In this document: one piece after another, positions 7,046-35,097 of the stretch
How the letters are laid out: the number at the start of each line of letters is the position of its first letter
Numbering within the stretch: the first letter of the stretch is position 1
Assembly: GCA_964649665.1 (NCBI GenBank)
Contig: CAZYPU010000003.1
Span: 1-44,299, forward strand
Length of the DNA stretch: 44,299 nucleotides
Origin: an uncultured Planctomycetia bacterium
Lineage (GTDB): Bacteria > Omnitrophota > Gorgyraeia > JABMRN01 > RBG-13-46-9
Direction: 5' to 3'
The notes under the pieces: model-generated
What the model was told of the DNA's origin: nothing
What the model saw: the letters and a program-made list of their open reading frames with translations, nothing else
Database searches by the model: none
Made by a program: the position numbers and the translations under genes

Positions 7046-8749
7046 GTGCATATTAATTTTAGCAAAACTCGCCACTTTTCCATTCTAATCGTATTCTGCG
7101 CTCTTTTCACGGTACTTATCGCGCGCCTCCTATATATCCAGATAATACGCAGTAAGCAGTTCTCTGCGCTCGCCGACAAGCAGCATAAGCTCTTCCTCAG
7201 GCTCGAGCCGCAAAGGGGGAGCATATACGACAGGCGAAACAGGGTGCTGGCCATATACATGGATGCGCCGTCCATATACGCTGTCCCCAGAGAGATAAGC
7301 GACAAGGAAAATGCCGCGGGCGTTCTGGCGGAGAAACTCGGCATCGACAGAAAACAGCTTGCACAAAAATTGCAGAAAGACAACTATTTCGCCTGGGTAA
7401 AAAGAAAAGTAGATCCTGAAACAGCGGATAAAATTGAAAAGTTGGGCATTCGCGGCGTGCTCCTGATGGACGAGCCGAAGAGGTTTTATCCCGGCGGCAA
7501 GCTCTCCTGTCATGTTTTGGGTATGACAGGCGTCGATAACGAGGGCCTGGAGGGCATAGAGCTTTATTACGACAGGGAGCTCAAGGGTGAACCCGGCTGG
7601 CGCCTTTCTTCGAGAGATGCCAAGAGGAGGGAAGTTATTTCTTTTCAAAGAGGCTTTGTGCCCGCGCGTGAGGGCAAAAGCGTTGTCCTTACCGTTGACG
7701 AAGTTATACAGCATATCATAGAGAAAGAGATCGAGTATCTCCTGCAGCAGTACAAACCCGCGGCCGTTTCCGTAGTGGCGCTTAACCCGCGGACCGGCGA
7801 AATCTTAGGCATGGCAAATTATCCCTGGTTTGACCCGAACGATATTTCCGGCGTGGACGCCTCCGCGGTAAGGAACAGGGCCATAACCGATTCGTTTGAG
7901 CCGGGCAGTGTTTTTAAAGTAGTAACCGCAAGCGCGGCGCTCGAGGAAGGAATCGTTGACTTTGACAGCGAATTCTACTGCGAGAAAGGCGCCTACAAAA
8001 TCGGTAAAAGAACGTTGCACGATTACCGGCCTTATGGTACATTAAAATTCAGCGAGATAATAGAGAAGTCGAGCAATATAGGCACTGTCAAGGTGGCCGG
8101 CAAATTGGGCAGGGAGAAACTGGCGGAGTATATAAAGCGCTTTAATTTTGGCGAAACCACAGGTATTGACCTGCCGGGCGAGGCCGCGGGCATAATACGC
8201 AATCCCTCGGGCTGGACATATGTTGACATGACGACGATACCCATGGGCCAGGGCATCGCCGTTACGGCGCTGCAGCTTGCGTCCTGCGTTTCAGTTATCG
8301 CAAACGACGGCGCCTTAATGCGGCCATACGTCGTTAAAAAATTTCTGGACAAAGAAGGCGCCGCCATAGAAGAAAACAAGCCGAGAACGGTGCGAAGGGT
8401 AATTTCGAAAGAAACCGCCCGCAAGGTTAAGAAATTGCTTGCCGGGGTCGTGGAGAAGGGCACCGGGACCCGGGCGCGCCTTGAAAATTTTACCGCATGC
8501 GGGAAAACCGGCACCGCCGAAAAGGTAAATCCGAGAGGCGGTTATTACAAAAACAAATACATAAGTTCTTTTATCGGTTTCGCGCCCTGCGAGAAGCCTG
8601 CGGTGGCGCTTGTTGTTTGCGTGGACGAGCCCGTGAGGGAACATTTCGGAAGCCGCGTTGCGGCCCCCGCGTTTAAACGAATGATGGAAAAGATTTTGCC
8701 CTATTTGGAAATCGAAAGCGATAAAGGTGAAACTAAAAAAAGTTCTTGA
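7046..8749 (+). CDS. ftsI: Divisome transpeptidase PBP3
   Basis: RGSIYDR, EPGSVFK (SxxK), SSN and KTGT motifs. Confidence 0.93.
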   Translation: MHINFSKTRHFSILIVFCALFTVLIARLLYIQIIRSKQFSALADKQHKLFLRLEPQRGSIYDRRNRVLAIYMDAPSIYAVPREISDKENAAGVLAEKLGIDRKQLAQKLQKDNYFAWVKRKVDPETADKIEKLGIRGVLLMDEPKRFYPGGKLSCHVLGMTGVDNEGLEGIELYYDRELKGEPGWRLSSRDAKRREVISFQRGFVPAREGKSVVLTVDEVIQHIIEKEIEYLLQQYKPAAVSVVALNPRTGEILGMANYPWFDPNDISGVDASAVRNRAITDSFEPGSVFKVVTASAALEEGIVDFDSEFYCEKGAYKIGKRTLHDYRPYGTLKFSEIIEKSSNIGTVKVAGKLGREKLAEYIKRFNFGETTGIDLPGEAAGIIRNPSGWTYVDMTTIPMGQGIAVTALQLASCVSVIANDGALMRPYVVKKFLDKEGAAIEENKPRTVRRVISKETARKVKKLLAGVVEKGTGTRARLENFTACGKTGTAEKVNPRGGYYKNKYISSFIGFAPCEKPAVALVVCVDEPVREHFGSRVAAPAFKRMMEKILPYLEIESDKGETKKSS

Positions 8750-11480: not shown

Positions 11481-11485
11481 AAAAA

Positions 11486-12574
11486 ATGCTGTACTATCTA
11501 CTATACCCCTTAAAAGACCTGTGGTTCGGGTTTAACGTATTCAAGTACGTTACCTTTAGAGCGGCGATGGCGAGCATAACGGCCTTTGTCCTGAGCGTCA
11601 TAATAGGCCCGTTCGTTATCAAAAAACTTTCCCTCATGAAAATAGGCGACTCGCCGAGAAGGCAGCATGTCGAAGACCTCTATGAGCTGCACAAGCACAA
11701 AGAAGGAACGCCGACAATGGGCGGCATCGTTATCATATTATCCATGCTTATTTCCACGTTTCTCTGGGCCCGGCTCGATAACACTTTTATTATCCTCTGC
11801 CTCATAAGCGTCCTCTGGCTCGGTATAGTCGGTTTCGTAGATGATTATATAAAACTGGTCAAGGTAAAATCGCCCGGATTGAGCGCTACGGCAAAATTCG
11901 CCGGGCAGCTTGTGTTAGGCATAGGAGTAGGGCTTTACCTTTATTTTGACGCTCAGGTTTCCACGGCCCTTTATGTGCCTTTTTTAAAGCACGCGCTTTT
12001 TAATCTGGGCGTGCTGTATATTTTATTTGTCGTCCTTGTTATTGTCGGCACGAGCAACGCTGTAAACATAACGGACGGGCTGGACGGCCTGGCGGTCGGC
12101 TGCGTCAGTTTCATAGCCCTAAGCTACAGTGTGATCAGCTATCTGACCGGCCACCTTGGATTCAGTAACTACCTGAATATTTATTACCTTGCCGGAAGCG
12201 GAGAACTCACGGTATTCTGCGCAACCATAGTGGGCGCGGGGCTCGGATTTTTGTGGTTTAATTCTTATCCGGCGACGATTTTCATGGGCGATACGGGGTC
12301 GCTGCCGCTCGGAGGGGCTATCGGCATAGTAAGTGTCCTTATAAAAAAAGAGGTGCTTCTCCTTGTGGTGGGCGGGATATTTGTCGCGGAAGTCCTTAGC
12401 GTGATAATCCAAGTCGTATCGTTCAGGGTTTACAAGAGGCGTGTTTTCCGGATGGCCCCGCTTCACCATCACCTGCAGCTTTTGGGATGGCCGGAACCCA
12501 AAATTATCGTGCGTTTCTGGATAGTGGGGATTCTGCTGGCACTATTCGGGCTTGCAACACTGAAACTGATGTAA
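11486..12574 (+). CDS. mraY: Phospho-MurNAc-pentapeptide transferase
   Basis: Start re-assigned to MLYYLLY; GTPTMGG, NAVNITDGLDGL, FMGDTGS and MAPLHHH motifs. Confidence 0.96.
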   Translation: MLYYLLYPLKDLWFGFNVFKYVTFRAAMASITAFVLSVIIGPFVIKKLSLMKIGDSPRRQHVEDLYELHKHKEGTPTMGGIVIILSMLISTFLWARLDNTFIILCLISVLWLGIVGFVDDYIKLVKVKSPGLSATAKFAGQLVLGIGVGLYLYFDAQVSTALYVPFLKHALFNLGVLYILFVVLVIVGTSNAVNITDGLDGLAVGCVSFIALSYSVISYLTGHLGFSNYLNIYYLAGSGELTVFCATIVGAGLGFLWFNSYPATIFMGDTGSLPLGGAIGIVSVLIKKEVLLLVVGGIFVAEVLSVIIQVVSFRVYKRRVFRMAPLHHHLQLLGWPEPKIIVRFWIVGILLALFGLATLKLM

Positions 12575-12576
12575 GA

Positions 12577-13950
12577 ATGGACCTTCGCAACAAAAAAGTT
12601 ACCGTAGTGGGACTCGGCAATAGCGGCATAGGCAGCGCGATCCTTTTACATTCGGAGGGCGCCGTTGTTTCCGTTACGGATAGCGCTGATACCGGGAGCG
12701 TAAGGAAAAACAAGGCGCTTCTTAGAGAAAAATATATTGACGCGGAAATAGGCGTTCATAGCGAAAATTTCCTGAAGGGGACGGAGCTGTTTGTGGTGAG
12801 CCCCGGCATAGAGAATTCTTCGCTGCCTCTCCGCTACGCGAAAGAGAACAGTATTCCGGTAATAAGCGAGCTGGAGCTGGGATACAATTTCTGCAAAGCG
12901 CCGGTAGCAGCCGTTACCGGCACAAACGGAAAATCTACGGTAGTTTCCCTGATCGGCCGCATTCTGCAGGCGGCGGGTGTTCCGGCGGTGGTGTGCGGTA
13001 ACATAGGAAATTCGCTGTCAGGAGAAATATGCGCTCCCGGCCCCAAGCGCATCACAAAGAACACGGTGGTGATTCTCGAAGTAAGTTCATTCCAGCTCGA
13101 GCGGATAATCTCCTTCCGGCCGAAAATATCCGTTATACTCAATGTCAGCGAAGACCACATGGACAGGCACAGCGATTTTAAGGATTATCTCGGGGCCAAA
13201 AAAAATATATTCAAAAATCAGAAAAAAGACGATATTACAGTATTGAATTACGATGACAGCAATTCACGGAAGTTGGGCGCTTCCGGCGAGATCGCTTCCA
13301 GGGTCCTTTATTTCAGCGCCGGGAAAAAGGTTGAAGGCGCGTATCTCGAGAAAGGGGCGGTGAAGACGTTCCTGAAAAAGAAGGTGAAATGGCTTTTCGA
13401 CCTGAAAGAACCGGGCTTCAAAGGCGCTCACAATGCAGAGAACATTCTGGCGGCGGTATTGGTATCGGTTCTGCTCGGCGCGGATAGGGCCGCCATGGAA
13501 AAATCGGTGAAGCATTTTACCCCGCTGGCGCACAGGTTCGAAGTAATAGCAAAAGTGGACGGAGTTGATTTTATCGACGACTCCAAGGCGACAAACGTGG
13601 ATTCGACTTACCGCGCGCTCAAAGTAGCCGGACGGCGCACTATCCTAATAGCCGGCGGGAAAGATAAAAACCTTCCGTACGAGAAGATCGTACCCGCGTT
13701 GAAAAAAGGCGTAAAGAAAGTTGTCCTGATAGGCGAGGCGCGGGGTAAAATGCGGGGCATCTTCGAAAAATACGTGGACGTCGAAGAGAAGGATTCGCTT
13801 GAAGAAGCCGTTTTTACCGCCTATAAAAGCGCCTCTCCGGGCGACTGTGTGCTCCTTTCGCCCATGTGCTCGAGTTTCGACATGTTCACTGACTATCGAC
13901 ATCGGGGCGAGGTGTTTCGCGAAGCGGTAAAGAAATTAAAAAATGCCTGA
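12577..13950 (+). CDS. murD: UDP-MurNAc-L-Ala:D-Glu ligase
   Basis: Start re-assigned to MDLRNKK; VTGTNGKSTV, LEVSSFQL, DDSKATN and LSPMCSSFDMF motifs. Confidence 0.96.
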   Translation: MDLRNKKVTVVGLGNSGIGSAILLHSEGAVVSVTDSADTGSVRKNKALLREKYIDAEIGVHSENFLKGTELFVVSPGIENSSLPLRYAKENSIPVISELELGYNFCKAPVAAVTGTNGKSTVVSLIGRILQAAGVPAVVCGNIGNSLSGEICAPGPKRITKNTVVILEVSSFQLERIISFRPKISVILNVSEDHMDRHSDFKDYLGAKKNIFKNQKKDDITVLNYDDSNSRKLGASGEIASRVLYFSAGKKVEGAYLEKGAVKTFLKKKVKWLFDLKEPGFKGAHNAENILAAVLVSVLLGADRAAMEKSVKHFTPLAHRFEVIAKVDGVDFIDDSKATNVDSTYRALKVAGRRTILIAGGKDKNLPYEKIVPALKKGVKKVVLIGEARGKMRGIFEKYVDVEEKDSLEEAVFTAYKSASPGDCVLLSPMCSSFDMFTDYRHRGEVFREAVKKLKNA

Positions 13951-15028
13951 GATAAGAAGGTCGGTTTTTATCACTGCGTTTACGCTCATAGCGATAGGCG
14001 TTGTTATGCTGTATTCCTCGAGCGCCATATACGCGTATGAAAAAAGCGGCGACGCCGCCTTTTTTTTAAAAAAGCACCTGTGGTTTTTACTGCTCGGATT
14101 TATTTTTATGTTTTGCGCCATGTCCGTAAAACTCGCAAAAGTCGAGAGGTCATCGCGAATTTTAATGTCAGCGGCGATTTTGCTGCTGCTGGCCGTGCTG
14201 GTTCCGGGCGTTGGCGTTGCGGTGCGCGGGGCGCGGCGGTGGTTCAGGATCGCAGGCGTCGTAAGTTTCCAGCCGTCCGAATTCGCAAAGTTCGCGGTTA
14301 TAATATACCTGGCCTCATTCGTAAGCAGAAAGGGATACAGGATTAAAGATTTGCTCCGGGGCTACATCCCGGTCAGTGCGGTGATTTTGCTGACGAGCGG
14401 CCTTATTTTACTCCAGCCCGATTTCGGGACATCCGTGTCAGTTTTTATTATGGGATTTCTCATTATTTTTGCCTCCGGCGCAAAACTCAAACACCTGATG
14501 ACAACGGCGCTTCTTGCGATTCCGTTTCTGTACTACCTGGTATTCAGCGTGCCTTACAGGCGCAAGAGAATGCTTATATTCCTTAATCCGTGGCGAGAGG
14601 CGGAAGGCGGCGGTTTTCAGATTGTCCAGTCGCTTATCGCGCTCGGGTCGGGTGGGCTGCTTGGTGTCGGCCTGGGGCAGTCGAAGCAGAAACTTTTCTA
14701 CCTTCCCGAGTCTCATACGGATTTTATTTTTTCCATAATAGGCGAGGAGCTCGGTTTCGCGGGCGCGATCTGCGTTGTTATATTATTCGGCGTTTTTGTG
14801 TGGCAGGGAATGCGCGCCTTTTTCAGGGAACATCGCCCGTTTAATAAAATCCTCATATTCGGCATAACGGGCATGATAGGTTTTGAGGCGCTGGTCAATA
14901 TCGGCGTAAACATGGGCGCTTTTCCCACAAAGGGCCTGCCGCTTCCGTTTGTGAGCTACGGCGGTTCGTCGCTCGTATTCCACATGGCTGCCCTGGGGCT
15001 TCTGTTAAATGCGATGAGGGAAGAATGA
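13943..15028 (+). CDS. ftsW: SEDS glycosyltransferase FtsW
   Basis: GARRW, FQPSEFAK, QPDFG, LPESHTDFIF and SYGGSS motifs; dcw position. Confidence 0.95.
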   Translation: MPEIRRSVFITAFTLIAIGVVMLYSSSAIYAYEKSGDAAFFLKKHLWFLLLGFIFMFCAMSVKLAKVERSSRILMSAAILLLLAVLVPGVGVAVRGARRWFRIAGVVSFQPSEFAKFAVIIYLASFVSRKGYRIKDLLRGYIPVSAVILLTSGLILLQPDFGTSVSVFIMGFLIIFASGAKLKHLMTTALLAIPFLYYLVFSVPYRRKRMLIFLNPWREAEGGGFQIVQSLIALGSGGLLGVGLGQSKQKLFYLPESHTDFIFSIIGEELGFAGAICVVILFGVFVWQGMRAFFREHRPFNKILIFGITGMIGFEALVNIGVNMGAFPTKGLPLPFVSYGGSSLVFHMAALGLLLNAMREE

Positions 15029-16116
15029 AGGTACTGATCGCTTCGGGGGGAAGCGGCGGCCATATTTTTCCGGCCGTTTCCCTTGCAAGGGAGTTAAGAA
15101 AAATCGGCGCCGAGATAATTTTTGTCGCCTCGAGAAGGCGCCTTGACAGGAGCATTCTTGAAAAAGAGCCGTATAAAAAGATATTTCTATCCGTCAATCC
15201 CATGCCGTATAAATTCGGCCTGCGCGCGCTTATCTTTCCCTTTAAACTGGCGCTGGACGCGCTGGCGGCTTTCGCTATCCTTGTTAAATACAGGCCGGAG
15301 ACGGTTATCGGTTTTGGCGGCTACACTTCCGGCGCCATGGTGCTGCTGGGCTCGGTGATGAACGTGAGAACAATCATACATGAGCAGAACGTAATCCCCG
15401 GCAGGACAAACAGGTTTCTTGACAGAGTTGCAGGATCGGTAGCGCTGAGTTTTTCTGAAACGGGAAAATATTTTTCCAACAGGAATGTGATAATCACCGG
15501 GAACCCGCTACGGGAAGAGAGCCTCAAAGAGACCCGGACAGGCGCCCTCGGGGGTTTTAAACTCGATACCGAAAGAATGACTATCCTCGTCATGGGCGGG
15601 AGTCAGGGCGCAAGTTCCCTTAACAGGCTGGTTTCGGAAAGCGTGGTGCTTCTTCCGGCTGCGAAAAAAAAGCGGTTGCAGATTATTCATATAGCCGGCG
15701 CGAAAAAAACAGGGGAAATCCAAAAACGTTATGACGAAGAGGGCATACGCGCCCGGGTGTACGCATTTATACCGAACATAAACGAGGCCTACAGCGTAAG
15801 CGACATGGCAATCAGCCGTTCGGGCGCCGCGGCGGTATTTGAACTCGCTGCGTTCAGGAAGCCGATGATCCTGATACCTTACCCGGAGGAAAAGAATAAC
15901 CAGCGTTTTAACGCGATTTATTTTGCGGAAAAAAACGCCGCGATTTACAGGGACGAGAAAAACCTGCGAATAGAAGAGCTGCGGGACCTGATATCGGCCC
16001 TTATGGACGATTCGGCTAAACGCGGGATGCTCGCGGACAATGCCGGCAAACTTAGCGTTACGGACGGGGCGAAGAAATTAGCGGAGATTGTATGCATGAT
16101 AAAAAAATCCACATGA
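15025..16116 (+). CDS. murG: MurG GlcNAc transferase
   Basis: GGSGGHIFP, GFGGY, HEQN, TGNP, GGSQGA and RSGA motifs. Confidence 0.96.
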   Translation: MKVLIASGGSGGHIFPAVSLARELRKIGAEIIFVASRRRLDRSILEKEPYKKIFLSVNPMPYKFGLRALIFPFKLALDALAAFAILVKYRPETVIGFGGYTSGAMVLLGSVMNVRTIIHEQNVIPGRTNRFLDRVAGSVALSFSETGKYFSNRNVIITGNPLREESLKETRTGALGGFKLDTERMTILVMGGSQGASSLNRLVSESVVLLPAAKKKRLQIIHIAGAKKTGEIQKRYDEEGIRARVYAFIPNINEAYSVSDMAISRSGAAAVFELAAFRKPMILIPYPEEKNNQRFNAIYFAEKNAAIYRDEKNLRIEELRDLISALMDDSAKRGMLADNAGKLSVTDGAKKLAEIVCMIKKST

Positions 16117-17522
16117 TCGGTATTGGCGGTATCGGCATGAGCGCGCTTGCGTTTATCCTGGCCGAGAAGGGATCAAACGTAAGCGGCTCGGATATCGAAG
16201 AAAATAATATTGTAAAAAAACTGCACAAAAAAGGAATAGCGGCGGACATAGGCCATGACGCCTCCCGCGTGAACGGCCGGGATCTCGTGGTATTTTCCTC
16301 GAGCATCCGTGCGGATAATCCAGAACTTTTACAGGCCCGTAAGAACCGGGCGAAAGTAATATCACGGATAGAACTTTTGAAAATGGTCATGGAAAAATAT
16401 GAAAGGGTTATCGGCGTTACGGGTACTCACGGAAAGACGACCATTACGGCAATGGCGGCACATCTTTTGGAGGAGGCGGGTTTTGACCCCACAGTTCTTA
16501 TCGGAGGCGAATCGCCGCATTTCGCCGGGAACGCTAAACTTGGAAAAAGCGGGACACTCGCGGCCGAAGTGGACGAAAGCGACGGCAGGCTCGTAACACT
16601 TACGGGGCTTACGCATATTATCGTTCCGAATCTCGAGCGTGAGCACCTGGAGCATTACAGGGATGAGGCGCATCTCGTGAATACGTTCAGGGATTTTCTA
16701 CGCGGGCAAACGAAAAAAGGAACCCTTTTCTGCAATTCTGACGACGGCAACCTGAAAAAAATAAAAGGCGCCTATGGCGGAAAGGTTACGTGTTTCGGTT
16801 TTTCCGAAGACGCGGACGCGCGCCTAAGCGCCGTGCAAAAAGGAATATTAAAAATTGATTTCGACTGTTCCGTCCGGCAAAAGAAAATAGGACGTTTTAC
16901 GATAAACATACCCGGCATCCACAATGCGCTGAACGCCGCGGCAGTAATTTCCCTCGGCCTGGAACTCGGCATAGGCGCGGACACGATAAAGCGCGCGCTC
17001 GCCGGTTATAGGGGAGTTAAAAGGCGATTTGAGATCATAGGCACCCTTAACGGCGCCAGGGTAGTGGAGGATTACGCGCATCATCCAACGGAAGTAAAGG
17101 CGACTATTTCCGCCGCCTGTTCCCTGAAGCCGAAAAGGTTGATAGCGGTGTTTCAGCCTCACCGCTACACGAGGACAAAATATTTCTATAAAGAATTTGC
17201 GTCCGCTTTTTCGGGAGCGGATGAAGTCATTCTTGCGGGCGTGTATTCCGCCAGCGAGGAAAAAATAGAAGGCGCAAGCTCGAAACGCATATACGACATC
17301 ATGGTGAGGGATAAGACGCTGCCCGTGAAGCTCGTGGAAACCGGTAAAATAGGGGAATATCTTTGCAGAAACGCAAAAAATGGAGACCTTGTTCTCGTGA
17401 TGGGCGCAGGGGATATAGGGAAGGTAATGCGGGGTATCGGATTGTCAACATATCAGGAGGGAAGTGGCCCAAGTGGAAATGAGGCGCGTCTTTTCGAAAA
17501 TAAAAGGGAAAGTATTATTTAA
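16092..17522 (+). CDS. murC: UDP-MurNAc:L-Ala ligase
   Basis: IGIGGIGMS, VTGTHGKTT, EVDESD, DYAHHPTE, FQPHRYTRT and GAGDI motifs; C-terminal tail overlaps murB. Confidence 0.95.
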   Translation: MHDKKIHMIGIGGIGMSALAFILAEKGSNVSGSDIEENNIVKKLHKKGIAADIGHDASRVNGRDLVVFSSSIRADNPELLQARKNRAKVISRIELLKMVMEKYERVIGVTGTHGKTTITAMAAHLLEEAGFDPTVLIGGESPHFAGNAKLGKSGTLAAEVDESDGRLVTLTGLTHIIVPNLEREHLEHYRDEAHLVNTFRDFLRGQTKKGTLFCNSDDGNLKKIKGAYGGKVTCFGFSEDADARLSAVQKGILKIDFDCSVRQKKIGRFTINIPGIHNALNAAAVISLGLELGIGADTIKRALAGYRGVKRRFEIIGTLNGARVVEDYAHHPTEVKATISAACSLKPKRLIAVFQPHRYTRTKYFYKEFASAFSGADEVILAGVYSASEEKIEGASSKRIYDIMVRDKTLPVKLVETGKIGEYLCRNAKNGDLVLVMGAGDIGKVMRGIGLSTYQEGSGPSGNEARLFENKRESII

Positions 17523-18438
17523 CGAACCGCTCAAACGGCACACGACATTTCGCATAGGCGGGCCCTGCGGGGTCTGGGCCGAACCCCGCAGCGAAAGAGA
17601 CTTGCGGGAAATTTTAAAGCTGGCAAAGGCAAGAAAGAAAAGAACTGTTCTGATGGGCGCCGGGAGCAATATCCTGCCCGGGGACAGGGCCGCAAGCGGC
17701 GTAGTGATTCACCTGGGAGGCAAATATTTTAAAAGGGTACATTTTTCCGGCCGGAAGGTTACAGCCGGAGCGGGGATATCATTAGCCTATTTAATCAACC
17801 TTCTGTGTGAAAAGGGGCTTGGGGGCACGGAAGGGCTCGCCGGCATTCCGGGCACGCTCGGCGGCGCGATTTTCATGAATGCCGGATACAGGGGAAACAT
17901 ATCGGATTGCCTGGAATCTGTGCGGGTAATGAGTAAGAAAAGCGGGAAAATCTCTGTATTAAAAAAGTCACGCAAAGAGAATTCCGCAGAAGGATCTTTG
18001 CGGGATCCCGCAGAATTTCATCAGGAGAAACTTCATGCGGGAAAAAAAATAAAATTTAGTTATCGACATTCAGGCCTGTACGGCTATATAATACTGGAGG
18101 CGACGCTCAGCCTCAAAAAATCCGATAAAAAGAAGCTGTTGAAAAAAAGAAATAAGGTCCTGAGGGTCAAAAAATCCGAGCAGCCACTCGGCTCGATGAA
18201 TGCAGGGTGCGTTTTTAAAAATCCCGGAAGGGCGCTTCCGGCGGCCCTGTACATCGACATGCTGGGGTTTAAAGGAAAGAGAATAGGGGGCGCGAAGGTT
18301 TCGGAGAAGCACGCCAATTTTATAATTAATGAAAAAGGCGCGAAAGCAAGCGATGTCTTGCGTCTCATGGACATTATAAAAAAGCGCGTTAAATCCGAAT
18401 TCGGAGTTGAACTGGCCCCTGAGATAGAGATATTGTAG
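17479..18438 (+). CDS. murB: UDP-GlcNAc-enolpyruvate reductase with a ~25-aa internal insertion (start may be GTG 17464)
   Basis: HTTFRIGG, GAGSN, GIPGTLGGA..MNAG, FSYR, GCVFKN, HANFIIN and EIEI motifs. Confidence 0.94.
   Translation: MRRVFSKIKGKVLFNEPLKRHTTFRIGGPCGVWAEPRSERDLREILKLAKARKKRTVLMGAGSNILPGDRAASGVVIHLGGKYFKRVHFSGRKVTAGAGISLAYLINLLCEKGLGGTEGLAGIPGTLGGAIFMNAGYRGNISDCLESVRVMSKKSGKISVLKKSRKENSAEGSLRDPAEFHQEKLHAGKKIKFSYRHSGLYGYIILEATLSLKKSDKKKLLKKRNKVLRVKKSEQPLGSMNAGCVFKNPGRALPAALYIDMLGFKGKRIGGAKVSEKHANFIINEKGAKASDVLRLMDIIKKRVKSEFGVELAPEIEIL
17968..18042. repeat. 75-bp double-hairpin insert in frame within murB
   Basis: CGCAAAGA/TCTTTGCG and TCCCGCA/TGCGGGA arms; flanked by A-tracts. 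Confidence 0.6.
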
Positions 18439-18447
18439 CGTTTAGGC

Positions 18448-18524
18448 GTCATTGCGAGGGCGCGAAGCGCCCGAAGCAATCTCAATGGGATTGCTTCGTC
18501 GGCCTCCGGCCTCCTCGCAATGAC
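18448..18524. repeat. REP/RPE-like cruciform element (GTCATTGCGAG...CTCGCAATGAC), copy 1
   Basis: Terminal inverted repeat plus internal GAAGCAATC/GATTGCTTC; intergenic murB-ddl. Confidence 0.85.
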
Positions 18525-18536
18525 GGAGTTTAAACT

Positions 18537-19472
18537 ATGAAAGACTACGGTAAGATAGCCGTGTTTGCCGGCGGCCTTTCCAGCGAGCGCGAAATCAGTT
18601 TACAGAGCGGCCGCGCCGTCTACGGGGCGCTTAAAAAAAAGAATCAGGACGCGGAATTCGTGGATGTAGGCGCCGATGCGGGCGCTGTCCTTGCGAGCGC
18701 GCTCGCCGATATTGTTTTTATTACCCTCCACGGGCGCTTCGGTGAAGACGGAACGGTCCAGTCGATTCTTGAAGAGGCGCGCACTCCTTACACCGGGTCC
18801 GGCGTCGGGGCGTCGCGGCTTGCGCTGGACAAAATCGCTTCTAAAGAACTTTTTTTAAAAAACGGTTTAAAGGTGCCGTCCTGCAAGGTTATAAGAGACA
18901 ATGCCGGGGCGAATGGCGCATGCCGGGGATTTGAGACGCCGCTTGTGATAAAGCCGCAGCGCGAAGGTTCGAGCATGGGGCTTTCCATCGTAAGCGACAG
19001 GGCACACATAAATACGGCTTTGGATATGGCGTTCGGCTACGGCGGGGCGGCTATTGTGGAAGAATATATACACGGCAGGGAGCTCACTGTGGGCATTCTG
19101 GAGGAGAAGGCGCTGCCCGTTGTGGAAATCGTGACCGAACGCAATGTTTACGATTTCAGGGCGAAATACCTGGACGAGGGAACAAAGTATTTCGTTCCGG
19201 CGGCGCTCGGAGCGGATGAATTTAAGCGGGCGCAGGAATCCGCGCTCAAGGCCCACCGAATTCTTGGCTGCAGGGATTTTTCGAGGGTCGATATGAGAAT
19301 GGATCGTGACGGCAACATTTATGTCCTGGAGGTAAACACGATTCCGGGCATGACCGAACGCAGCCTCCTGCCCAAGGCGGCGATGGCTGCAGGTATAAGT
19401 TACGAAGGTTTGTGCATGAAACTCATTGATTTAGCGCATGAAAGAAGGGGGAAAAAGGATGGCGAAAAGTAG
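18537..19472 (+). CDS. ddl: D-alanine-D-alanine ligase
   Basis: GGLSSEREISL, LHGRFGEDG, GSSMG and LEVNTIPGMT motifs. Confidence 0.96.
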   Translation: MKDYGKIAVFAGGLSSEREISLQSGRAVYGALKKKNQDAEFVDVGADAGAVLASALADIVFITLHGRFGEDGTVQSILEEARTPYTGSGVGASRLALDKIASKELFLKNGLKVPSCKVIRDNAGANGACRGFETPLVIKPQREGSSMGLSIVSDRAHINTALDMAFGYGGAAIVEEYIHGRELTVGILEEKALPVVEIVTERNVYDFRAKYLDEGTKYFVPAALGADEFKRAQESALKAHRILGCRDFSRVDMRMDRDGNIYVLEVNTIPGMTERSLLPKAAMAAGISYEGLCMKLIDLAHERRGKKDGEK

Positions 19473-20235
19473 CAGGAAGAAAGTAAGGAAAGAAGTGAAA
19501 ATACCGGACAGAAAAAAAACACTGATTAAAAAGGCCCTGTGCGCAGCGGTTGTTCTTGCCGTTATTGCCGCGGCGGCGCTTGCAATAAGGAATTCGAGCT
19601 ATTTTAAACTGGAGAGCGTAGAAGTTCTTGATGTAAGCCGCGCCGCCGGCAGCCTGGAAACGGACGACGCGTTACAGGTAAATATGGGGCGAAACATTTT
19701 CGATATTGACATAGCCTCCCTTGCCTCGCGGATTGAAATTAACTATCCGGTTATAAAGAAAGCCGTCGTACGGAGAATCCTGCCGAACCGGCTTGAAATA
19801 GGCATCATCCCGCGGCTTCCGATCGCCAAAATAAAGGACAAGCGCGGCTATTTTCCCATAGACGAAACCGGCATGGTTTTATCGGCGGACATAAAAAGCG
19901 ACAGACAGCCGGTTATAATCGGATTTTTCATGTGGCGCCCGCCAAACCCCGGCGAGCGGCTTACAAATAAACAGCTGGAAAACACGGTCCGCCTTATAGA
20001 AGCAATAAACGAAACGCTGGTCTTACGGGACTACGGGATAACTACTATCGACGCATCCAATCACAGAAATCTTTCTTTTTACCTTGATAGCGGCATTGAA
20101 GTGAAAATAGGGGGCGAGGACTTTCCCGCAAGGCTGCGGAAGTTGAAAGAAACCCTCGCTGAAGAGGGCCTGAACAAGGATAATATCAAATATCTGGACT
20201 TAAGATTTGATAGCGTTGTAATAGGGCCCAAATAA
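19459..20235 (+). CDS. ftsQ: FtsQ/DivIB family protein
   Basis: Basic N-tail, one TM, POTRA domain, C-terminal YLDLRF; start MAKSS after AAGGA. Confidence 0.88.
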   Translation: MAKSSRKKVRKEVKIPDRKKTLIKKALCAAVVLAVIAAAALAIRNSSYFKLESVEVLDVSRAAGSLETDDALQVNMGRNIFDIDIASLASRIEINYPVIKKAVVRRILPNRLEIGIIPRLPIAKIKDKRGYFPIDETGMVLSADIKSDRQPVIIGFFMWRPPNPGERLTNKQLENTVRLIEAINETLVLRDYGITTIDASNHRNLSFYLDSGIEVKIGGEDFPARLRKLKETLAEEGLNKDNIKYLDLRFDSVVIGPK

Positions 20236-20271
20236 AGATAATGGTCATTTGCGAAATCTGCGTTAAATAAT

Positions 20272-21333
20272 ATGAGTAAGTTAGTGACTGTTATAGATCT
20301 GGGGTCGCGCAGGATCGCAGCGGCCATGGCTGAAGCGGCAACCGACGGCCGCGTCAGGCTTTTAGCGCTGGAGAATATGAACTCAAACGGCATAAGCGGC
20401 GGCTGCATAACCGACATAGGCAAAACCGTCAAGGATATATCCAGCGTGATGCATAGAGTTCATAGCCGCGCGGGGCGAAAGGCAAAGAATGTGCTGGTCA
20501 CAACCGGCGGCGCGGACACAAAAATGGTTATTTCGCGGGGAATGGTACCGCTGGCCGGGGCGCCGCGGCAGATTACGGCAAAAGACGTGAAGAGATGCCT
20601 GGAGATAGCGGCAATGATAAACCTTCCGCTGGACAGGGTTTGCGTAGAGAAAATCGTAAGGAGATTTTATATAGACGGCGCTTCGGCGGGCGTTAAAGAT
20701 CCCGTGGGGCTTTATGGAATAAAGCTTGAGGTCGAAACTTTTGCGGCGACGGCGAATCATTCTAAAATTCAGAATATCACAAAGTGCGTAGACCATGCCG
20801 GGTTCCTGATGGATGGCATATACCTTTCGTGCACTGCATCCGCCGGGAGCGTTCTGGACGCGGAGGAAAAGACAAGAGGCGTGCTCCTGATTGCTATAGG
20901 AAGTTCCCTCACCGAGGCCCTTATTTTCAAGAACGATATTTTGCAAAGTTTTAAAATTATCGGGAAGGGAATGGCCGCGATTCTGGATAATGACATGCGT
21001 CCCGACAGCAAAAAGTCCGGCCGGCTATTAGACGAAGTTTCCTGCGTCCCGGGCCGAAGAACGGACGATTTTTCTTCGGTCGTCGTGACGGGCGGCGGCG
21101 CCTTGCCCGACGGCGTAATAGAGGAGGCGGAAAGACGATTTAATGTCCCTGCCAGAATGGGTATCGTGCGGAAAACGGGTTATAATCTAAACTCGCAGGA
21201 CGCAATTATTCACACCTCGACCATCGGTCTTATAGACCGGAAAGCCCGCGAGTACAAAAACGCCAATGCCGATAAGAATACCGTTCGAAAAGCCCTCCGG
21301 AAAATAATAGACGTATACGAGAGTTACTTTTAA
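20272..21333 (+). CDS. ftsA: Divergent, internally shortened FtsA
   Basis: IDLGS, SRGMVPL, DPVGLYGIKLE, SVLDAEEK.RGV and VVTGGG motifs plus a C-terminal amphipathic helix; only 353 aa. Confidence 0.85.
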   Translation: MSKLVTVIDLGSRRIAAAMAEAATDGRVRLLALENMNSNGISGGCITDIGKTVKDISSVMHRVHSRAGRKAKNVLVTTGGADTKMVISRGMVPLAGAPRQITAKDVKRCLEIAAMINLPLDRVCVEKIVRRFYIDGASAGVKDPVGLYGIKLEVETFAATANHSKIQNITKCVDHAGFLMDGIYLSCTASAGSVLDAEEKTRGVLLIAIGSSLTEALIFKNDILQSFKIIGKGMAAILDNDMRPDSKKSGRLLDEVSCVPGRRTDDFSSVVVTGGGALPDGVIEEAERRFNVPARMGIVRKTGYNLNSQDAIIHTSTIGLIDRKAREYKNANADKNTVRKALRKIIDVYESYF

Positions 21334-21342
21334 GCCCTCAGC

Positions 21343-21370
21343 GGGCGCCATTTCGGCTCGTCCTTTTTTT
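21343..21370 (+). terminator. Intrinsic terminator closing the dcw operon immediately after ftsA
   Basis: GGGCG-CC-atttc-GG-ct-CGTCC hairpin followed by T7. Confidence 0.65.
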
Positions 21371-21464
21371 ATACTTTGCAATTTGGAAAATGACGTGTTG
21401 TAACTTGTATATTTATGATAGATTACAGCAAAGTGAAACGTCCCCCTTTGGATATAAGTAAAAA

Positions 21465-21699
21465 AAGAAAACCGGGATTCTGGATGCATCTGAAAGATTT
21501 TAAAATCGTGTCGGCATCCGGCAGCAGGATGCCCTGGAGGCGAAAAATTTTGTGTGCGAGCGTTGCAATTGAGTGCTCAAATCTTGTGCACATCAATTGC
21601 AGCGAGCCACAAAATTCGCCGGAAGGGCGCCTGCTGCCGGATGCCGATCGGGTTAAAAATGAGTAAAAATCTTTCAGCGGGCAAAATCCCGGTTTTCTT
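21465..21699 (+). ncRNA. ~235-nt rod-like imperfect inverted repeat (candidate ncRNA or MITE)
   Basis: Nested arms 21465-21479/21685-21699 (15 bp), 21490-21501/21666-21677 (12 bp), 21511-21528/21630-21647 (18 bp), 21561-21572/21593-21604 (12 bp) plus shorter helices. Confidence 0.6.
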
Positions 21700-21723
21700 C
21701 TTTAACACCCGCATCATTTTCAA

Positions 21724-21752
21724 TTGACAGCCTATGGCTTATATGCTACGCT
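21724..21752 (+). promoter_or_regulatory. Promoter of the yggS operon
   Basis: TTGACA-17 nt-TACGCT with TGn extended -10. Confidence 0.55.
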
Positions 21753-21841
21753 ATCCCGAATGAAGATCGCTTCTTTAGGGGCTCTTCGGGATCCCGATGA
21801 GCATCCTAAAGACGTTTCTCCGTTCGGGAAATCGTTAAAAA

Positions 21842-22498
21842 ATGGTCAAAAAAAACCTCGCAAACGTTAGAAAGAGGATCGCCGAGGCCGCCGAGAAGTC
21901 GGGGCGCGACCCGGAAGCGGTAAGGCTCATAGTTGTCACGAAAGAAGCCGATGCCGAAGAGATCAAAGAGGCGATCGCCTCGGGCGTGAGGGACATTGGG
22001 GAAAATCGCGTAAAAGACGCCCGCTTAAAGAAGGAACTGCTGGACAGTCATGTACTGGCCTGGCATATGATAGGACACCTTCAGACCAACAAAGCCGCAG
22101 ACGCCGTTAAAATGTTTTCGATTATTCACTCCGTAGATAGCATTAAATCAGTCCATGCGATAGACAGCCAGGCCAAAAAGATCCGTAAGGTTCAGGATAT
22201 TATGATTGAGGTCAATGTTTCGGGGGAGGGGAGTAAATTCGGCATTAAGCCCGAAGCGCTGGGAAATTTTCTTGAAGAAACCCGATCCCTGAAGCATGTG
22301 AAGGCGCTGGGCCTTATGACGATGGCGCCGTTTACGGATGACGCCGAAACAGCACGGCCTTATTTCCGAAAATTAAAGAAATTGAGAGATGCCTGCGGCT
22401 TGAAGGAGCTCTCCATGGGGATGACACAGGACTTTGAGGTGGCTGTGGAAGAAGGCGCTACGATGGTCCGGGTGGGCAGCGCGATATTTAAAAGTTAA
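21842..22498 (+). CDS. yggS: PLP-binding homeostasis protein YggS/YlmE
   Basis: VVTK, GENRV, WHMIGHLQTNK, GLMTM, LSMGMTQDF and GATMVRVGSAIF motifs. Confidence 0.96.
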   Translation: MVKKNLANVRKRIAEAAEKSGRDPEAVRLIVVTKEADAEEIKEAIASGVRDIGENRVKDARLKKELLDSHVLAWHMIGHLQTNKAADAVKMFSIIHSVDSIKSVHAIDSQAKKIRKVQDIMIEVNVSGEGSKFGIKPEALGNFLEETRSLKHVKALGLMTMAPFTDDAETARPYFRKLKKLRDACGLKELSMGMTQDFEVAVEEGATMVRVGSAIFKS

Positions 22499-22505
22499 AA
22501 AAACT

Positions 22506-22585
22506 GTCATTGCGAGGCGCCGAAGGCGCCGAAGCAATCTAAAACGATGAGATTGCTTCGGGCGCTGGCGCGCCCTCGCAATGAC
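22506..22585. repeat. REP/RPE-like cruciform element, copy 2
   Basis: GTCATTGCGAG...GAAGCAATC...GATTGCTTC...CTCGCAATGAC. Confidence 0.85.
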
Positions 22586-22604
22586 GGCTTAAAGTAGGTA
22601 CATC

Positions 22605-23402
22605 ATGAAATTGGGCATAATCGGTTGCGGGAACATGGGAAGCGCTATTGCCAGCGGCACTCTCTCCATGAGGGTATTGTCGTTCGGCAATATTTACGTG
22701 AGCGATAAAGATTCATCCAGGACCAGAGCCCTCAACAAAAAATTCGGTATCCGCGTGGGCACAAACGTTGAGGTTGTTAAAAAGTGCGGCATTATCATCA
22801 TTGCGGTTAAGCCGCAGGATTTCAAGGCGTTGCTGCCGTCAATTTCAGATCACCTCGACAATTCCAAGTACCTGGTTTCAATCATGGCCGGCGTTACCAT
22901 AGCGCGGATCGAGGAGCTCATAAAGAAGAAAATTGCCGTAACACGGGCGATGCCGAATATAGCGGCCATGGCGGGAAAGGGCATAACCGTTTTAAGCCAT
23001 AACAGGATGGTGAAAAGCGAAGCGGCGGTACGCATGATTTTTGCTTCCGTAGGCGAGGTAGTGGAAATCAACGAAAAAAAGATGGATGCGGTAACCGCGG
23101 TAAGCGGAAGCGGCCACGCTTATTTCTATTATCTGACGGAAGCGCTTAAGGAAGCGGCGGTAAAATTGGGCATAACAAAAGAGCTCGCGGCAAAGCTTGC
23201 AAGCGCAACGCTTATCGGCAGCGGCGCGCTTTTGGAAAGCATGGACGAGCCCCCTGAGGTTTTAATAAAGCGCATAACTTCCAAAAAGGGCACGACGGAA
23301 GCGGCGCTTAACGTTTTTAAAATGAAAAGGCTTGAAAGAATTGTGATCAAGGCGGTAGAGGCGGCCGCGAAAAGATCCCGGGAACTTTCGAGGGAGGCGT
23401 AA
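22605..23402 (+). CDS. proC: Pyrroline-5-carboxylate reductase
   Basis: IGCGNMG, AVKPQ, SIMAG, RAMPN, TAVSGSG and TSKKGTT motifs. Confidence 0.96.
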   Translation: MKLGIIGCGNMGSAIASGTLSMRVLSFGNIYVSDKDSSRTRALNKKFGIRVGTNVEVVKKCGIIIIAVKPQDFKALLPSISDHLDNSKYLVSIMAGVTIARIEELIKKKIAVTRAMPNIAAMAGKGITVLSHNRMVKSEAAVRMIFASVGEVVEINEKKMDAVTAVSGSGHAYFYYLTEALKEAAVKLGITKELAAKLASATLIGSGALLESMDEPPEVLIKRITSKKGTTEAALNVFKMKRLERIVIKAVEAAAKRSRELSREA

Positions 23403-23406
23403 AAAC

Positions 23407-23706
23407 ATGTTTGTTATAGGAAATTTCATATTTGCCGTAGCCGTTATTCTTCAATATCTGATTACGATATTGACCTGGATCATAATCATAAGGGCGCTCA
23501 TCAGCTGGGTTAATCCCGATCCGTATAACGTAATCGTGCAGATTCTGCACAGGATAACGGAGCCGATACTGGCGCCGTTAAGAAGGATTATCCCGATGCA
23601 GAACGCCGGCATAGACATATCTCCGATAATCGCGATACTTCTTTTGTGGTTTGTGAGATTATTTATTGTTAACAGCTTATTAGGGCTTGCCCTTCGCCTG
23701 AGATAA
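23407..23706 (+). CDS. yggT: YggT/YlmG family membrane protein
   Basis: IRALISWVNPDPYN...TEPIL.PLRR...DISPI. Confidence 0.93.
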   Translation: MFVIGNFIFAVAVILQYLITILTWIIIIRALISWVNPDPYNVIVQILHRITEPILAPLRRIIPMQNAGIDISPIIAILLLWFVRLFIVNSLLGLALRLR

Positions 23707-34005: not shown

Positions 34006-35079
34006 ATGAATTTTAATGCACTTGCCGAACTTATCTCAAAGGGCTTCAACAATCTGTTGGGCCTCTTTTCGAATGATATGGGTATCGACCTCGGTACAGC
34101 CACCACGCTTGTCTACATAAAAAATCAGGGCATTGTCCTTTGCGAGCCGTCCGTCGTAGCGATTCAGGCCGGCACCTCGAACGTTCTCGCTGTCGGGGAA
34201 GAGGCGAAAAGGATGCTCGGAAGAACACCGGGCAATATCGTTGCGATACGGCCGATGCGAAACGGCGTAATAGCTGATTTCGAGATTACCGAAGCGATGC
34301 TCAGGTATTTTATAAAAAAAGTTCACAATTCCCGCCGTTTAGTAAGGCCGAGAATGGTTATAGCTATTCCTTCCGGCATTACGGAGGTGGAAAAAAGGGC
34401 GGTTAAGGATTCGGCGCTTCATGCGGGCGCGCGTGAGGTTTACATGATAGAGGAGCCGGTAGCCGCGGCCATAGGCGTGGGCCTGCCGATTCAGGAGCCC
34501 TCGGGCAGCATGATCATCGACATAGGCGGCGGAACGACCGAGATGGCGGTTATATCATTGGCAGGAATAGTTTTTGCAAAGTCAATAAGGGTTGCGGGCG
34601 ATGAAATGGACGAAGCGATCATCAATTATTTAAAAAAGACCTACAACCTCATGATAGGGGAGCGTACCGCGGAAGAGATTAAGGTAAAAATCGGTTCGGC
34701 CTACCCGCTGGACGAAGAATTAACTATGGAAGTAAGGGGAAGGGATCTCGTGGCCGGCCTTCCGAAAATGATTACCGTTTCAAGCGAGGAAGTGAGGGAG
34801 GCGCTCGCAGAGCCCATAGCCCAGATTGTCGAGTCCATCAGAATAACACTTGAGAGAACCCCTCCGGAACTTTCGGCGGATTTGATGGAAAAAGGCCTTA
34901 TTATGGCCGGCGGCGGATCTCTCTTGCGCGGCCTGGACAAGCTAATCTCAGAGGAAACGGGCCTGCCGGTTCACATCTCCGAAGATCCCTTAACAGCCGT
35001 TGCGCTTGGCACCGGCAAGGTGCTTAGCGAAATGCGATACCTTAAAAGACTTGCCGTAAGTCCAAAAGTAGAAAGATAA
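34006..35079 (+). CDS. mreB: Rod shape-determining actin MreB
   Basis: [39 protein letters not shown] and AGGGSLL motifs. Confidence 0.98.
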
Positions 35080-35097
35080 AAACCTACGTGGGCGAAG

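What the first reader, a model, noticed from the sequence alone, without database searches (positions are those of the whole stretch)
20272..21841. dcw operon ends at ftsA with no ftsZ: candidate FtsZ-less or FtsZ-uncoupled division system
Seen: an otherwise complete dcw operon (mraZ to ftsQ-ftsA) is followed 10 nt after the ftsA stop by a hairpin plus T7 terminator. The 508 nt before yggS contain no FtsZ-like ORF in any frame (no GGGTG(S/T)G tubulin motif). The downstream yggS-proC-yggT...ileS-lspA-rluD block also lacks sepF and divIVA, which accompany it in several phyla. Known: ftsZ normally follows ftsA directly; Chlamydiae and Planctomycetes lost ftsZ, and Chlamydiae divide using MreB. 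Inference: this lineage may have lost or relocated ftsZ while keeping FtsQ/L/W/I and a full mreBCD-mrdA-rodA set, possibly an intermediate stage of FtsZ loss.
Basis: partly seen in the sequence, partly recalled or inferred. Interest (0 to 1): 0.8.

Follow-up and report, generated by a model that had tools for sequence, protein, structure and literature searches.

The report
Omnitrophota division cluster lacking ftsZ
This window comes from an Omnitrophota bacterium whose cell-division gene cluster really does stop at ftsA with no ftsZ; the phylum-wide lack of ftsZ is already published, but the retained FtsA has lost most of its FtsZ-binding subdomain, and I found no report of that.

Summary
A complete dcw cluster (mraZ to ftsQ-ftsA, 5239-21333) is followed by 508 non-coding bases and then yggS-proC-yggT. 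No FtsZ is detectable anywhere in the 44 kb.

The organism is an Omnitrophota bacterium (PVC superphylum). The same ftsA-yggS junction without ftsZ occurs in every related locus with enough flank. In 22 of 24 control loci from other phyla, ftsZ sits directly after ftsA.

The inference of ftsZ loss rather than relocation matches published work. Seymour et al. 2023 (Supplementary Note 1) found no ftsZ across 421 Omnitrophota genomes, apart from one archaeal-like contaminant. Pende et al. 2021 list Omnitrophica as FtsZ-less but FtsA-positive. The headline is therefore already known.

What I add:
- The junction looks like a clean in-place deletion, and a conserved promoter for yggS sits in the gap.
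- The retained FtsA (353 aa) keeps its 1C domain and C-terminal tail. Its 2B region, which holds the FtsZ-binding site, is 42-65 residues in most clade members against 115-118 in canonical FtsA.
- Some clade members still have a full-length 2B, so erosion followed ftsZ loss.
- The "terminator" after ftsA is weak.
- Most of the gap is a multi-copy palindromic repeat.

The parts
5239..21333 (+). dcw cluster: mraZ, rsmH, ftsL-like ORF, ftsI, murE-murF fusion, mraY, murD, ftsW, murG, murC, murB, ddl, ftsQ, ftsA
   Evidence: Pfam hits for every gene except the 94-aa ftsL-like ORF
19438..20235 (+). ftsQ (POTRA_1 plus FtsQ_DivIB_C)
20272..21333 (+). ftsA, short Omnitrophota form (353 aa; alternative GTG start at 20284 gives 349 aa)
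   Evidence: SHS2_FTSA 6e-14. PDB profile hit to FtsA 7q6g at E 2e-45. AF2 model pLDDT 87.7; Foldseek top hit FtsA 7q6f with TM 0.81, against about 0.6 for PilM
20509..20739 (+). FtsA subdomain 1C (residues 80-156), full length
   Evidence: Pfam SHS2_FTSA covers residues 80-156. Region is 75-76 aa in the clade against 73-75 aa in canonical FtsA
20902..21090 (+). Remnant of FtsA subdomain 2B (residues 211-273), between the phosphate-2 and adenosine motifs
   Evidence: 64 residues here against 115-118 in canonical FtsA. The PDB alignment skips FtsA residues about 241-317
21280..21330 (+). FtsA C-terminal helix ending ...IDVYESYF, the presumed amphipathic membrane tail
   Evidence: Helix 337-352 in the model, at low confidence. 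E350, Y352 and F353 are invariant in the family. It resembles canonical ...WFSDLF tails
21334..21370 (+). Two small stems followed by a U7 run: a weak terminator-like site after ftsA
   Evidence: -11 kcal/mol, z -1.4 to -2.1; not called by the scan
21458..21706 (.). Imperfect palindrome of about 250 nt (long hairpin); its core is a multi-copy repeat. Specific to this genome
   Evidence: MFE -141.5 kcal/mol, z -13.6. Inverted repeat I7. Depth 278 against 15 in run X1. Absent from relatives. No Rfam family
21724..21752 (+). Conserved sigma-70-type promoter for yggS: TTGACA (21724-21729), 17-nt spacer with an extended -10 TG in the window, TACGCT (21747-21752)
   Evidence: TTGACA is invariant, and the T-TG-TA-C core of the -10 region is invariant, across 8 Omnitrophota ftsA-yggS intergenic regions
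21748..21835 (+). Hairpin just upstream of the yggS start; conserved in two relatives
   Evidence: -44.9 kcal/mol, z -6.0. 76-87% identity to L005 and L004 at the same position
21842..23706 (+). yggS, proC, yggT: the block that follows ftsA directly
   Evidence: Pfam. yggS-proC follows ftsA directly in L004, L005, L008, L010, L011, L012, L015 and L041; yggT was seen in only some of them
34006..39351 (+). mreB, mreC, mreD, mrdA (PBP2), rodA: complete elongasome set
   Evidence: Pfam

Best explanation
The window is from an Omnitrophota bacterium, a phylum that lost ftsZ in its common ancestor.

The gene was most likely removed in place, between ftsA and yggS. I infer this because yggS follows ftsA directly across the clade while ftsZ follows ftsA in other phyla. 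The rest of the dcw cluster stayed intact, and a separate, conserved promoter now drives yggS-proC-yggT.

Division therefore proceeds without a Z-ring, using the retained septal peptidoglycan machinery (FtsQ, an FtsL-like protein, FtsW, FtsI) together with FtsA. That FtsA no longer tethers FtsZ. Its 2B subdomain, which binds the FtsZ C-terminal peptide in model bacteria, is eroded to varying degrees within the clade, and its nucleotide-binding motifs are degenerate. The 1C subdomain and the C-terminal tail are kept.

Shown here:
- ftsZ is absent at this locus and in relatives.
- The synteny is conserved.
- 2B is shortened.
- 1C and the tail are conserved.

Taken from the literature: genome-wide and phylum-wide absence of ftsZ.

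Inferred: FtsA works as a membrane-bound adaptor or scaffold that recruits the FtsQ/FtsW/FtsI proteins through 1C, perhaps together with MreB, as in Chlamydiae.
For: Taxon. FtsA relatives are named Omnitrophica/Omnitrophota.

ftsZ absence.
- No FtsZ in the window.
- 0 of 14 loci of this FtsA clade with at least 1 kb of downstream sequence carry ftsZ after ftsA, against 22 of 24 control loci from other phyla.
- The closed genome CP070780.1 also ends its dcw cluster at ftsA.
- Published phylum-wide absence: Seymour 2023 Supplementary Note 1; Pende 2021 figure legend and Supplementary Data 2.

In-place deletion.
- The order murB-ddl-ftsQ-ftsA-yggS-proC-...-ileS is conserved even where FtsA identity falls to 25-37% (L012, L015) and in L041.
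- The ftsA-yggS gaps are 83-731 nt.

Separate transcription unit. TTGACA-N17-TAnnCT is conserved in 8 of 8 intergenic regions.

FtsA remodelling.
- The 2B region is 42-65 aa against 115-118 aa, while 1C is unchanged.
- The profile alignment to FtsA structures skips residues about 241-317. The E. coli FtsZ-peptide pocket involves residues 234-245 and 294-304.
- Deleting 2B abolishes FtsZ binding, and 1C recruits FtsQ and FtsN.
- Clade members with a full-length 2B also lack ftsZ (L041, L040, L017), so erosion followed the loss.
- The representative search splits cleanly into a short form and a canonical form.
Against: - I could not scan the source genome, or any complete Omnitrophota genome, for FtsZ myself. 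Genome-wide absence rests on two published surveys.
- A 2025 survey states that dcw genes are 'highly conserved' in Ca. Omnitrophota, without singling out ftsZ.
- The role proposed for the short FtsA is inference only. Shortening 2B should also disturb the longitudinal IIA-IIB filament contact, so filament formation is uncertain.
- Degenerate ATP motifs could mean the protein is a decaying relic. Its universal retention at the same position, and invariant residues, argue against that.
Confidence: 0.85

Rival explanations
1. ftsZ has been moved elsewhere in the genome and is simply uncoupled from the dcw cluster.
For: The window is only 44 kb of a contig recorded as 67 kb. ftsZ outside the dcw cluster occurs in some bacteria (general knowledge). 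The iScience 2025 survey calls dcw genes highly conserved in Omnitrophota.
Against: Two independent genome-wide surveys found no ftsZ in true Omnitrophota. The single KO list visible in the stored supplement has K03587-K03590 (ftsI, ftsW, ftsQ, ftsA) and no K03531 between K03529 and K03536. The FtsZ-binding subdomain of FtsA is eroded, which would not be expected if FtsZ were still the partner.
Confidence: 0.06
2. Assembly artefact: ftsZ lies between two copies of the repeat at 21458-21706 and was collapsed out of the assembly.
For: The hairpin core is multi-copy (depth 278 against 15). The independent Logan assembly breaks there, leaving 55 nt (21552-21606) not spanned by a single exact contig.
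Against: The two flanks form the two arms of one palindrome. Relatives that lack this repeat have the same ftsA-yggS adjacency, with gaps as short as 83-137 nt. Depth is even on both sides, 15.7 and 13.
Confidence: 0.02
3. A highly divergent tubulin-like protein, or a non-homologous cytoskeletal protein, has taken over the FtsZ role and was missed by marker-based surveys. FtsA would then serve that partner.
For: Omnitrophota FtsA is itself so divergent that it falls below the Pfam FtsA threshold, so divergence beyond marker thresholds is conceivable. The invariant C-terminal E-x-Y-F and the conserved 1C domain suggest a retained partner.
Against: FtsZ is among the most conserved bacterial proteins, and tblastn detected it easily in CPR, TM6, WOR-3 and other divergent phyla. 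Nothing tubulin-like appears in about 0.3 Mb of Omnitrophota sequence held here. 2B, the known FtsZ site, is variably deleted.
Confidence: 0.07

Closest known systems
FtsZ-less division in Chlamydiota and Planctomycetota (PVC superphylum)
   Same: Same superphylum. ftsZ is absent while the peptidoglycan-synthesis and FtsQ/FtsW/FtsI genes and MreB are retained.
   Different: Chlamydiota and Planctomycetota also lost ftsA. Omnitrophota keep ftsA at its ancestral position, and the dcw cluster is unfragmented here.
Canonical FtsA (E. coli, Vibrio maritimus, T. maritima; PDB 7Q6D, 7Q6F, 4A2A)
   Same: Actin fold with the FtsA-specific 1C (SHS2) domain. Gene sits after ftsQ. C-terminal helix. Best structural matches, TM about 0.8.
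   Different: About 50-75 residues of subdomain 2B, the FtsZ-peptide site, are missing. The phosphate-2 motif DxGGGT is replaced by AIGSSLTE. There is no FtsZ partner gene.
PilM (type IV pilus FtsA-like ATPase-fold adaptor; PDB 5EOU, 2YCH)
   Same: Similar size (about 350 aa) and FtsA-like architecture. It binds the N-terminal tail of a bitopic membrane partner in the IA-IC cleft, which makes it a plausible functional analogy.
   Different: Structural match is clearly weaker (TM about 0.6 against 0.8). The gene context is dcw, not pilMNOPQ. The Pfam hit is SHS2_FTSA, and no PilM_2 hit was returned for the window protein.
Published reports of Omnitrophota lacking FtsZ (Seymour et al. 2023 Supplementary Note 1; Pende et al. 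2021 figure legend and Supplementary Data 2)
   Different: In the passages I read, those papers only tabulate presence or absence. I did not find the locus architecture, the 2B erosion of FtsA or a mechanism described there.

Membership tests
FtsA (cell-division actin homologue) | Actin-like fold carrying the FtsA-specific 1C / SHS2 insertion | tested here: met
   SHS2_FTSA 6e-14 at residues 80-156. Foldseek top 19 hits are all FtsA, TM up to 0.81. PDB profile E 2e-45.
FtsA (cell-division actin homologue) | Gene located in the dcw cluster directly after ftsQ | tested here: met
   ftsQ 19438-20235, ftsA 20272-21333. Same order in all relatives.
FtsA (cell-division actin homologue) | Full subdomain 2B with the FtsZ C-terminal-peptide binding pocket | tested here: not met
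   64 residues between the phosphate-2 and adenosine glycines, against 115-118 in 21 canonical FtsA. Alignment to 7q6g skips residues about 241-317. The pocket residues are 234-245 and 294-304.
FtsA (cell-division actin homologue) | C-terminal amphipathic membrane-targeting helix | tested here: inconclusive
   A terminal helix is predicted at 337-352 but with low pLDDT. The tail ...IDVYESYF resembles canonical ...WFSDLF. Membrane binding was not tested.
FtsA (cell-division actin homologue) | Intact ATP-binding motifs (phosphate 1, phosphate 2, adenosine) | tested here: inconclusive
   Phosphate 1 is DLGSRRI and adenosine TGGGA is present. Phosphate 2 GGG is lost (AIGSSLTE). Other clade members are more degenerate.
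FtsA (cell-division actin homologue) | Pfam FtsA domain (PF14450) above the gathering score | tested here: not met
   28.8 bits against a cut-off of 31.8.
Canonical dcw cluster (mraZ ... ftsQ-ftsA-ftsZ) | Conserved gene order from mraZ through ftsA | tested here: met
Canonical dcw cluster (mraZ ... ftsQ-ftsA-ftsZ) | ftsZ immediately downstream of ftsA | tested here: not met
   No FtsZ by tblastn in the window. The positive control found ftsZ after ftsA in 22 other-phylum loci.
FtsZ-less PVC bacteria | No ftsZ anywhere in the genome | not testable with these tools
   Only 44 kb of this genome and stretches of about 20 kb from relatives could be read. The claim rests on Seymour 2023 and Pende 2021.
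FtsZ-less PVC bacteria | Peptidoglycan synthesis, FtsQ/FtsW/FtsI and MreB retained | tested here: met
FtsZ-less PVC bacteria (Chlamydiota/Planctomycetota type) | ftsA lost together with ftsZ | tested here: not met
   ftsA is present here and in all relatives. This sets Omnitrophota apart from the other two phyla.
Intrinsic terminator after ftsA | Stable GC-rich hairpin immediately followed by a U run | tested here: inconclusive
   The U7 run is present, but the stems are 4 and 3 bp, a 6-nt spacer intervenes, and z is -1.4 to -2.1. The scan did not call it.

The most novel reading that the evidence does not exclude
Omnitrophota run a Z-ring-free divisome organised by a remodelled FtsA.

- After ftsZ was deleted, FtsA was kept for its 1C domain and its membrane tail. 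Through these it acts as a membrane-bound adaptor, PilM-like or MreB-like, for FtsQ, the FtsL-like protein, FtsW and FtsI.
- The now useless FtsZ-binding 2B subdomain and the ATP-binding motifs decayed stepwise. The 2B region is 115, then 65, then 53, then 42 residues across lineages.
- That series would be a natural dissection of which FtsA functions are independent of FtsZ.
- It would also be the only known bacterial lineage that divides with FtsA but without FtsZ.
Probability: 0.5. Interest if true: 0.65.

Novelty: already known. Interest (0 to 1): 0.35.

Why it matters
How bacteria divide without FtsZ is an open question, studied so far in Chlamydiota and Planctomycetota, both of which also lost FtsA. 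Omnitrophota offer a third, different solution. They have a complete and orderly dcw cluster, peptidoglycan, MreB and FtsA, but no FtsZ.

The published record notes the absence only in a supplementary note and a figure legend. The graded erosion of the FtsZ-binding subdomain seen here is consistent with real and ancient loss. It also points to the FtsZ-independent job of FtsA, namely 1C-mediated recruitment of the septal synthase.

For genome annotation and completeness estimates, the practical message is that a missing ftsZ in these genomes is biology, not an assembly gap.

Tried and rejected
- Exact-sequence look-up of the 353-aa FtsA found nothing. The database form starts 4 codons later (P0001). 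Its look-up returned only a 3-kb Logan contig, so the contig could not be extended beyond the window.
- Rfam found no family for either intergenic hairpin. I first suspected 6S RNA for the long one, but only chance-level microRNA matches appeared.
- I considered scanning genome contigs with FtsZ. The single scan went to FtsA contexts instead.
- I considered a big-database FtsZ search to look for Omnitrophota-labelled FtsZ. I rejected it because hits cannot be filtered by taxon and a negative would be meaningless.
- My first promoter pattern had the wrong spacer length and found nothing. The coordinates were then read directly from the sequence and the alignment.
- I at first thought the invariant C-terminal ...YESYF might be a special interaction motif. 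Comparison with canonical tails (...WFSDLF) shows it is the usual amphipathic tail type.
- The PilM identity was rejected on structural score and gene context.
Full report
**What is in the window.**

Pfam scans confirm an uninterrupted + strand dcw array:

| Gene | Coordinates |
|---|---|
| mraZ | 5239-5679 |
| rsmH | 5855-6754 |
| ftsL-like ORF (94 aa) | 6761-7045 |
| ftsI | 7046-8749 |
| murE-murF fusion (917 aa) | 8727-11480 |
| mraY, murD, ftsW, murG, murC, murB, ddl | 11345-19472 |
| ftsQ | 19438-20235 |
| ftsA | 20272-21333 |

The ftsL-like ORF has no Pfam hit. It has an N-terminal hydrophobic stretch, and its assignment rests on that and on position.

After ftsA come 508 non-coding bases, then yggS, proC and yggT. 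These are followed by a purine-nucleoside-phosphorylase-family gene, a pfkB kinase, ileS, lspA, lgt, rluD, aroA and a GH3-family gene. Next comes the full mreB-mreC-mreD-mrdA-rodA set, then pilus ATPases.

tblastn with E. coli and B. subtilis FtsZ finds nothing better than E = 0.27 anywhere in the 44 kb. The same queries found ftsZ with E of 1e-79 to 1e-110 in 22 control loci.

**Assembly check.**

A freshwater metagenome run from 2018 (X1) holds 94% of the sampled words of this region. Its independently built Logan contigs match 19500-21551 and 21607-22534 with zero differences and similar depth, 15.7 and 13.

The 55-nt break sits at the tip of a long hairpin whose core has depth 278. That is a repeat, and it explains the break. 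Relatives without this repeat have the same gene junction. A collapsed ftsZ is therefore very unlikely.

**What fills the gap.**

- *The "terminator".* It consists of two tiny stems followed, after a 6-nt spacer, by U7 at 21364-21370. The fold is -11 kcal/mol with z of -1.4 to -2.1, and my scan did not call it.
- *The large palindrome.* Positions 21458-21706 form an imperfect palindrome of about 250 nt (-141.5 kcal/mol, z -13.6). It has no Rfam match and is absent from relatives.
- *A conserved promoter.* Aligning eight Omnitrophota ftsA-yggS spacers reveals an invariant TTGACA, then a 17-nt spacer, then TAnnCT. In the window these are 21724-21729 and 21747-21752, and the window spacer carries an extended -10 TG. 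yggS therefore starts its own conserved transcription unit.
- *A second hairpin.* Positions 21748-21835 (-44.9 kcal/mol, z -6) are conserved in two relatives.

**Whose genome, and is ftsZ really gone?**

All named homologues of the FtsA are Candidatus Omnitrophica/Omnitrophota. So are the genome records found with a family profile.

I examined 14 loci of this FtsA clade that have at least 1 kb of downstream sequence: the window, L004-L008, L010-L012, L015, L017, L040, L041 and L042. L007 is the closed 1.43-Mb chromosome CP070780.1. None has ftsZ after ftsA.

In contrast, 22 of 24 loci from other phyla returned by the same scan have ftsZ starting 200-450 nt after ftsA. These include Thermodesulfobacteriota, WOR-3, Babeliales, Nealsonbacteria and Halothiobacillaceae. 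The two exceptions are a contig end (L021) and a partial Bacillota match that I did not examine further (L035).

In eight of the Omnitrophota loci, yggS-proC follows ftsA directly, mostly with the PNP-family gene and ileS after them. The gaps are 83-731 nt, even where FtsA identity to the window is only 25-37%. This is the signature of an ancient in-place deletion of ftsZ, not a rearrangement.

I could not scan whole genomes. The literature has done so:

- Seymour et al. 2023 analysed 421 Omnitrophota genomes of 276 species. [quoted passage not shown] The exception was 89% identical to an archaeal protein.
- The same paper shows that OLB16, the only "Omnitrophica" with FtsZ in older surveys, belongs to another phylum (PMC10066038, Supplementary Notes 1 and 2).
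- Pende et al. 2021 list Omnitrophica with Planctomycetes and Chlamydiae as FtsZ-less. Their table shows FtsA but no FtsZ in three true Omnitrophica genomes (PMC8178401).
- Rivas-Marin et al. 2016 had left the question open.

**The FtsA itself.**

It is a real FtsA:

- SHS2/1C domain hit.
- Profile E of 2e-45 to FtsA crystal structures.
- A confident AlphaFold model (pLDDT 87.7, pTM 0.84).
- The best structural matches are all FtsA (TM 0.81), well ahead of PilM at about 0.6.

It is also about 60 residues short. Alignments place the deficit between the phosphate-2 and adenosine motifs, which is subdomain 2B. That interval compares as follows:

| Group | 2B-region length |
|---|---|
| 21 canonical FtsAs from very different phyla | 115-118 residues |
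| The window FtsA | 64 residues |
| Other members of the Omnitrophota clade | 42-65 residues |
| 1C region, clade versus canonical | 75-76 versus 73-75 residues |

In model bacteria 2B carries the pocket for the FtsZ C-terminal peptide. In E. coli that pocket involves residues 234-245 and 294-304. There is a salt bridge to FtsZ in the T. maritima co-crystal. Deleting 2B abolishes FtsZ binding, whereas 1C recruits FtsQ and FtsN.

The C-terminal tail (...IDVYESYF) is conserved and resembles ordinary FtsA membrane tails.

A search of 1.8 billion representative proteins splits cleanly in two. About 28 full-length representatives of 343-361 aa match in one stretch. Canonical proteins of about 400-456 aa match in two stretches that break at the 2B site.

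**Order of events.**

A second search found clade members with the same ...YF tail but a full-length 2B region of 115 residues. One is an Omnitrophota-labelled contig (L041, FtsA 417 aa) with exactly the window's synteny, ftsQ-ftsA-yggS-proC-PNP-ileS-...-lspA-lgt-rluD, and no ftsZ. Another (L040) has groES-groEL after ftsA.

So ftsZ loss came first and 2B shrank afterwards, to different extents in different lineages: 115, 65, 53, 46 and 42 residues.

Nucleotide-binding motifs are also degenerate across the clade. Phosphate-2 DxGGGT becomes AIGSSLTE, DIGSDTTE or EIDNSYTS. The adenosine motif TGGGA becomes CAGRT or TGSIV in some members.

The parts that persist are 1C and the tail. I infer that FtsA survives as a membrane-anchored adaptor for the FtsQ/FtsW/FtsI septal machinery, not as an FtsZ tether. 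Whether it still forms filaments is open, because 2B also contributes to the longitudinal filament contact.

**Verdict.**

- The interpretation (loss of ftsZ) is supported.
- Novelty of the headline is nil, because it is recorded in two papers, though only in a supplementary note, a figure legend and a table.
- In this library I found no discussion of the locus architecture, of FtsA remodelling, or of how Omnitrophota divide.

The graded loss of the FtsZ-binding subdomain is the new and testable piece.

Noticed in passing
window 21458-21706: Imperfect palindrome of about 250 nt (MFE -141.5 kcal/mol, z -13.6). Its core is about 18 times more abundant than the flanks in the source-like metagenome. 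It is absent from related genomes and has no Rfam family. It may be a MITE-like or REP-like mobile palindrome. An 83-aa ORF (21415-21666) inside it has no Pfam hit.
   Followed up: partly
window 18448-18485, 22504-22590, 38169-38206: Short intergenic repeat GTCATTGCGAGG...CGAAGCAATCT, three copies in both orientations. The copy after yggS forms a hairpin. Depth is 230-490 against 13 in three unrelated metagenomes, so this element is very widespread.
   Followed up: partly
window 21724-21835; L004, L005, L008, L010, L011, L012, L015 at the same position: A conserved TTGACA-N17-TAnnCT promoter lies upstream of yggS in all eight Omnitrophota loci aligned. It is followed in the window, L005 and L004 by a conserved 88-nt hairpin that overlaps the -10 element and runs to the yggS start codon. 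This may be a regulatory leader for the yggS-proC-yggT unit.
   Followed up: partly
window 8727-11480; L002 6135-8357: Lineage-specific Mur enzyme fusions. The window has a murE-murF fusion (917 aa, two sets of Mur ligase domains). The relative CP070780.1 has a murC-murB fusion (740 aa).
   Followed up: no
window 4176-4960: An RNase H gene (4176-4589) is followed directly by the RNase P RNA gene (4614-4960, 231 bits), just upstream of mraZ.
   Followed up: no
window 32212-33888: A GH3-family protein (the plant auxin-amido-synthetase-type acyl-adenylate enzyme family, all three domains) is encoded between aroA and mreB.
   Followed up: no
window 1390-1929: A 179-aa ORF has weak hits to NTP_transf_5 and the AbiEii toxin nucleotidyltransferase. 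It covers only part of each profile, so it may be a toxin-antitoxin remnant.
   Followed up: no
L015 9977-11029; L013 1565-2617; proteins P0243, P0241: Some Omnitrophota FtsA orthologues have lost key nucleotide-binding residues. Phosphate-1 DxG becomes SVH in L015, and adenosine TGGGA becomes CAGRT in P0243. This suggests a pseudo-ATPase state.
   Followed up: partly
literature: PMC10066038 Supplementary Note 1: The same note reports that Omnitrophota also lack ftsY (the SRP receptor) phylum-wide and ribosomal protein L30. The ftsY absence is said to be unique to this phylum. This could not be examined in the window.
   Followed up: no
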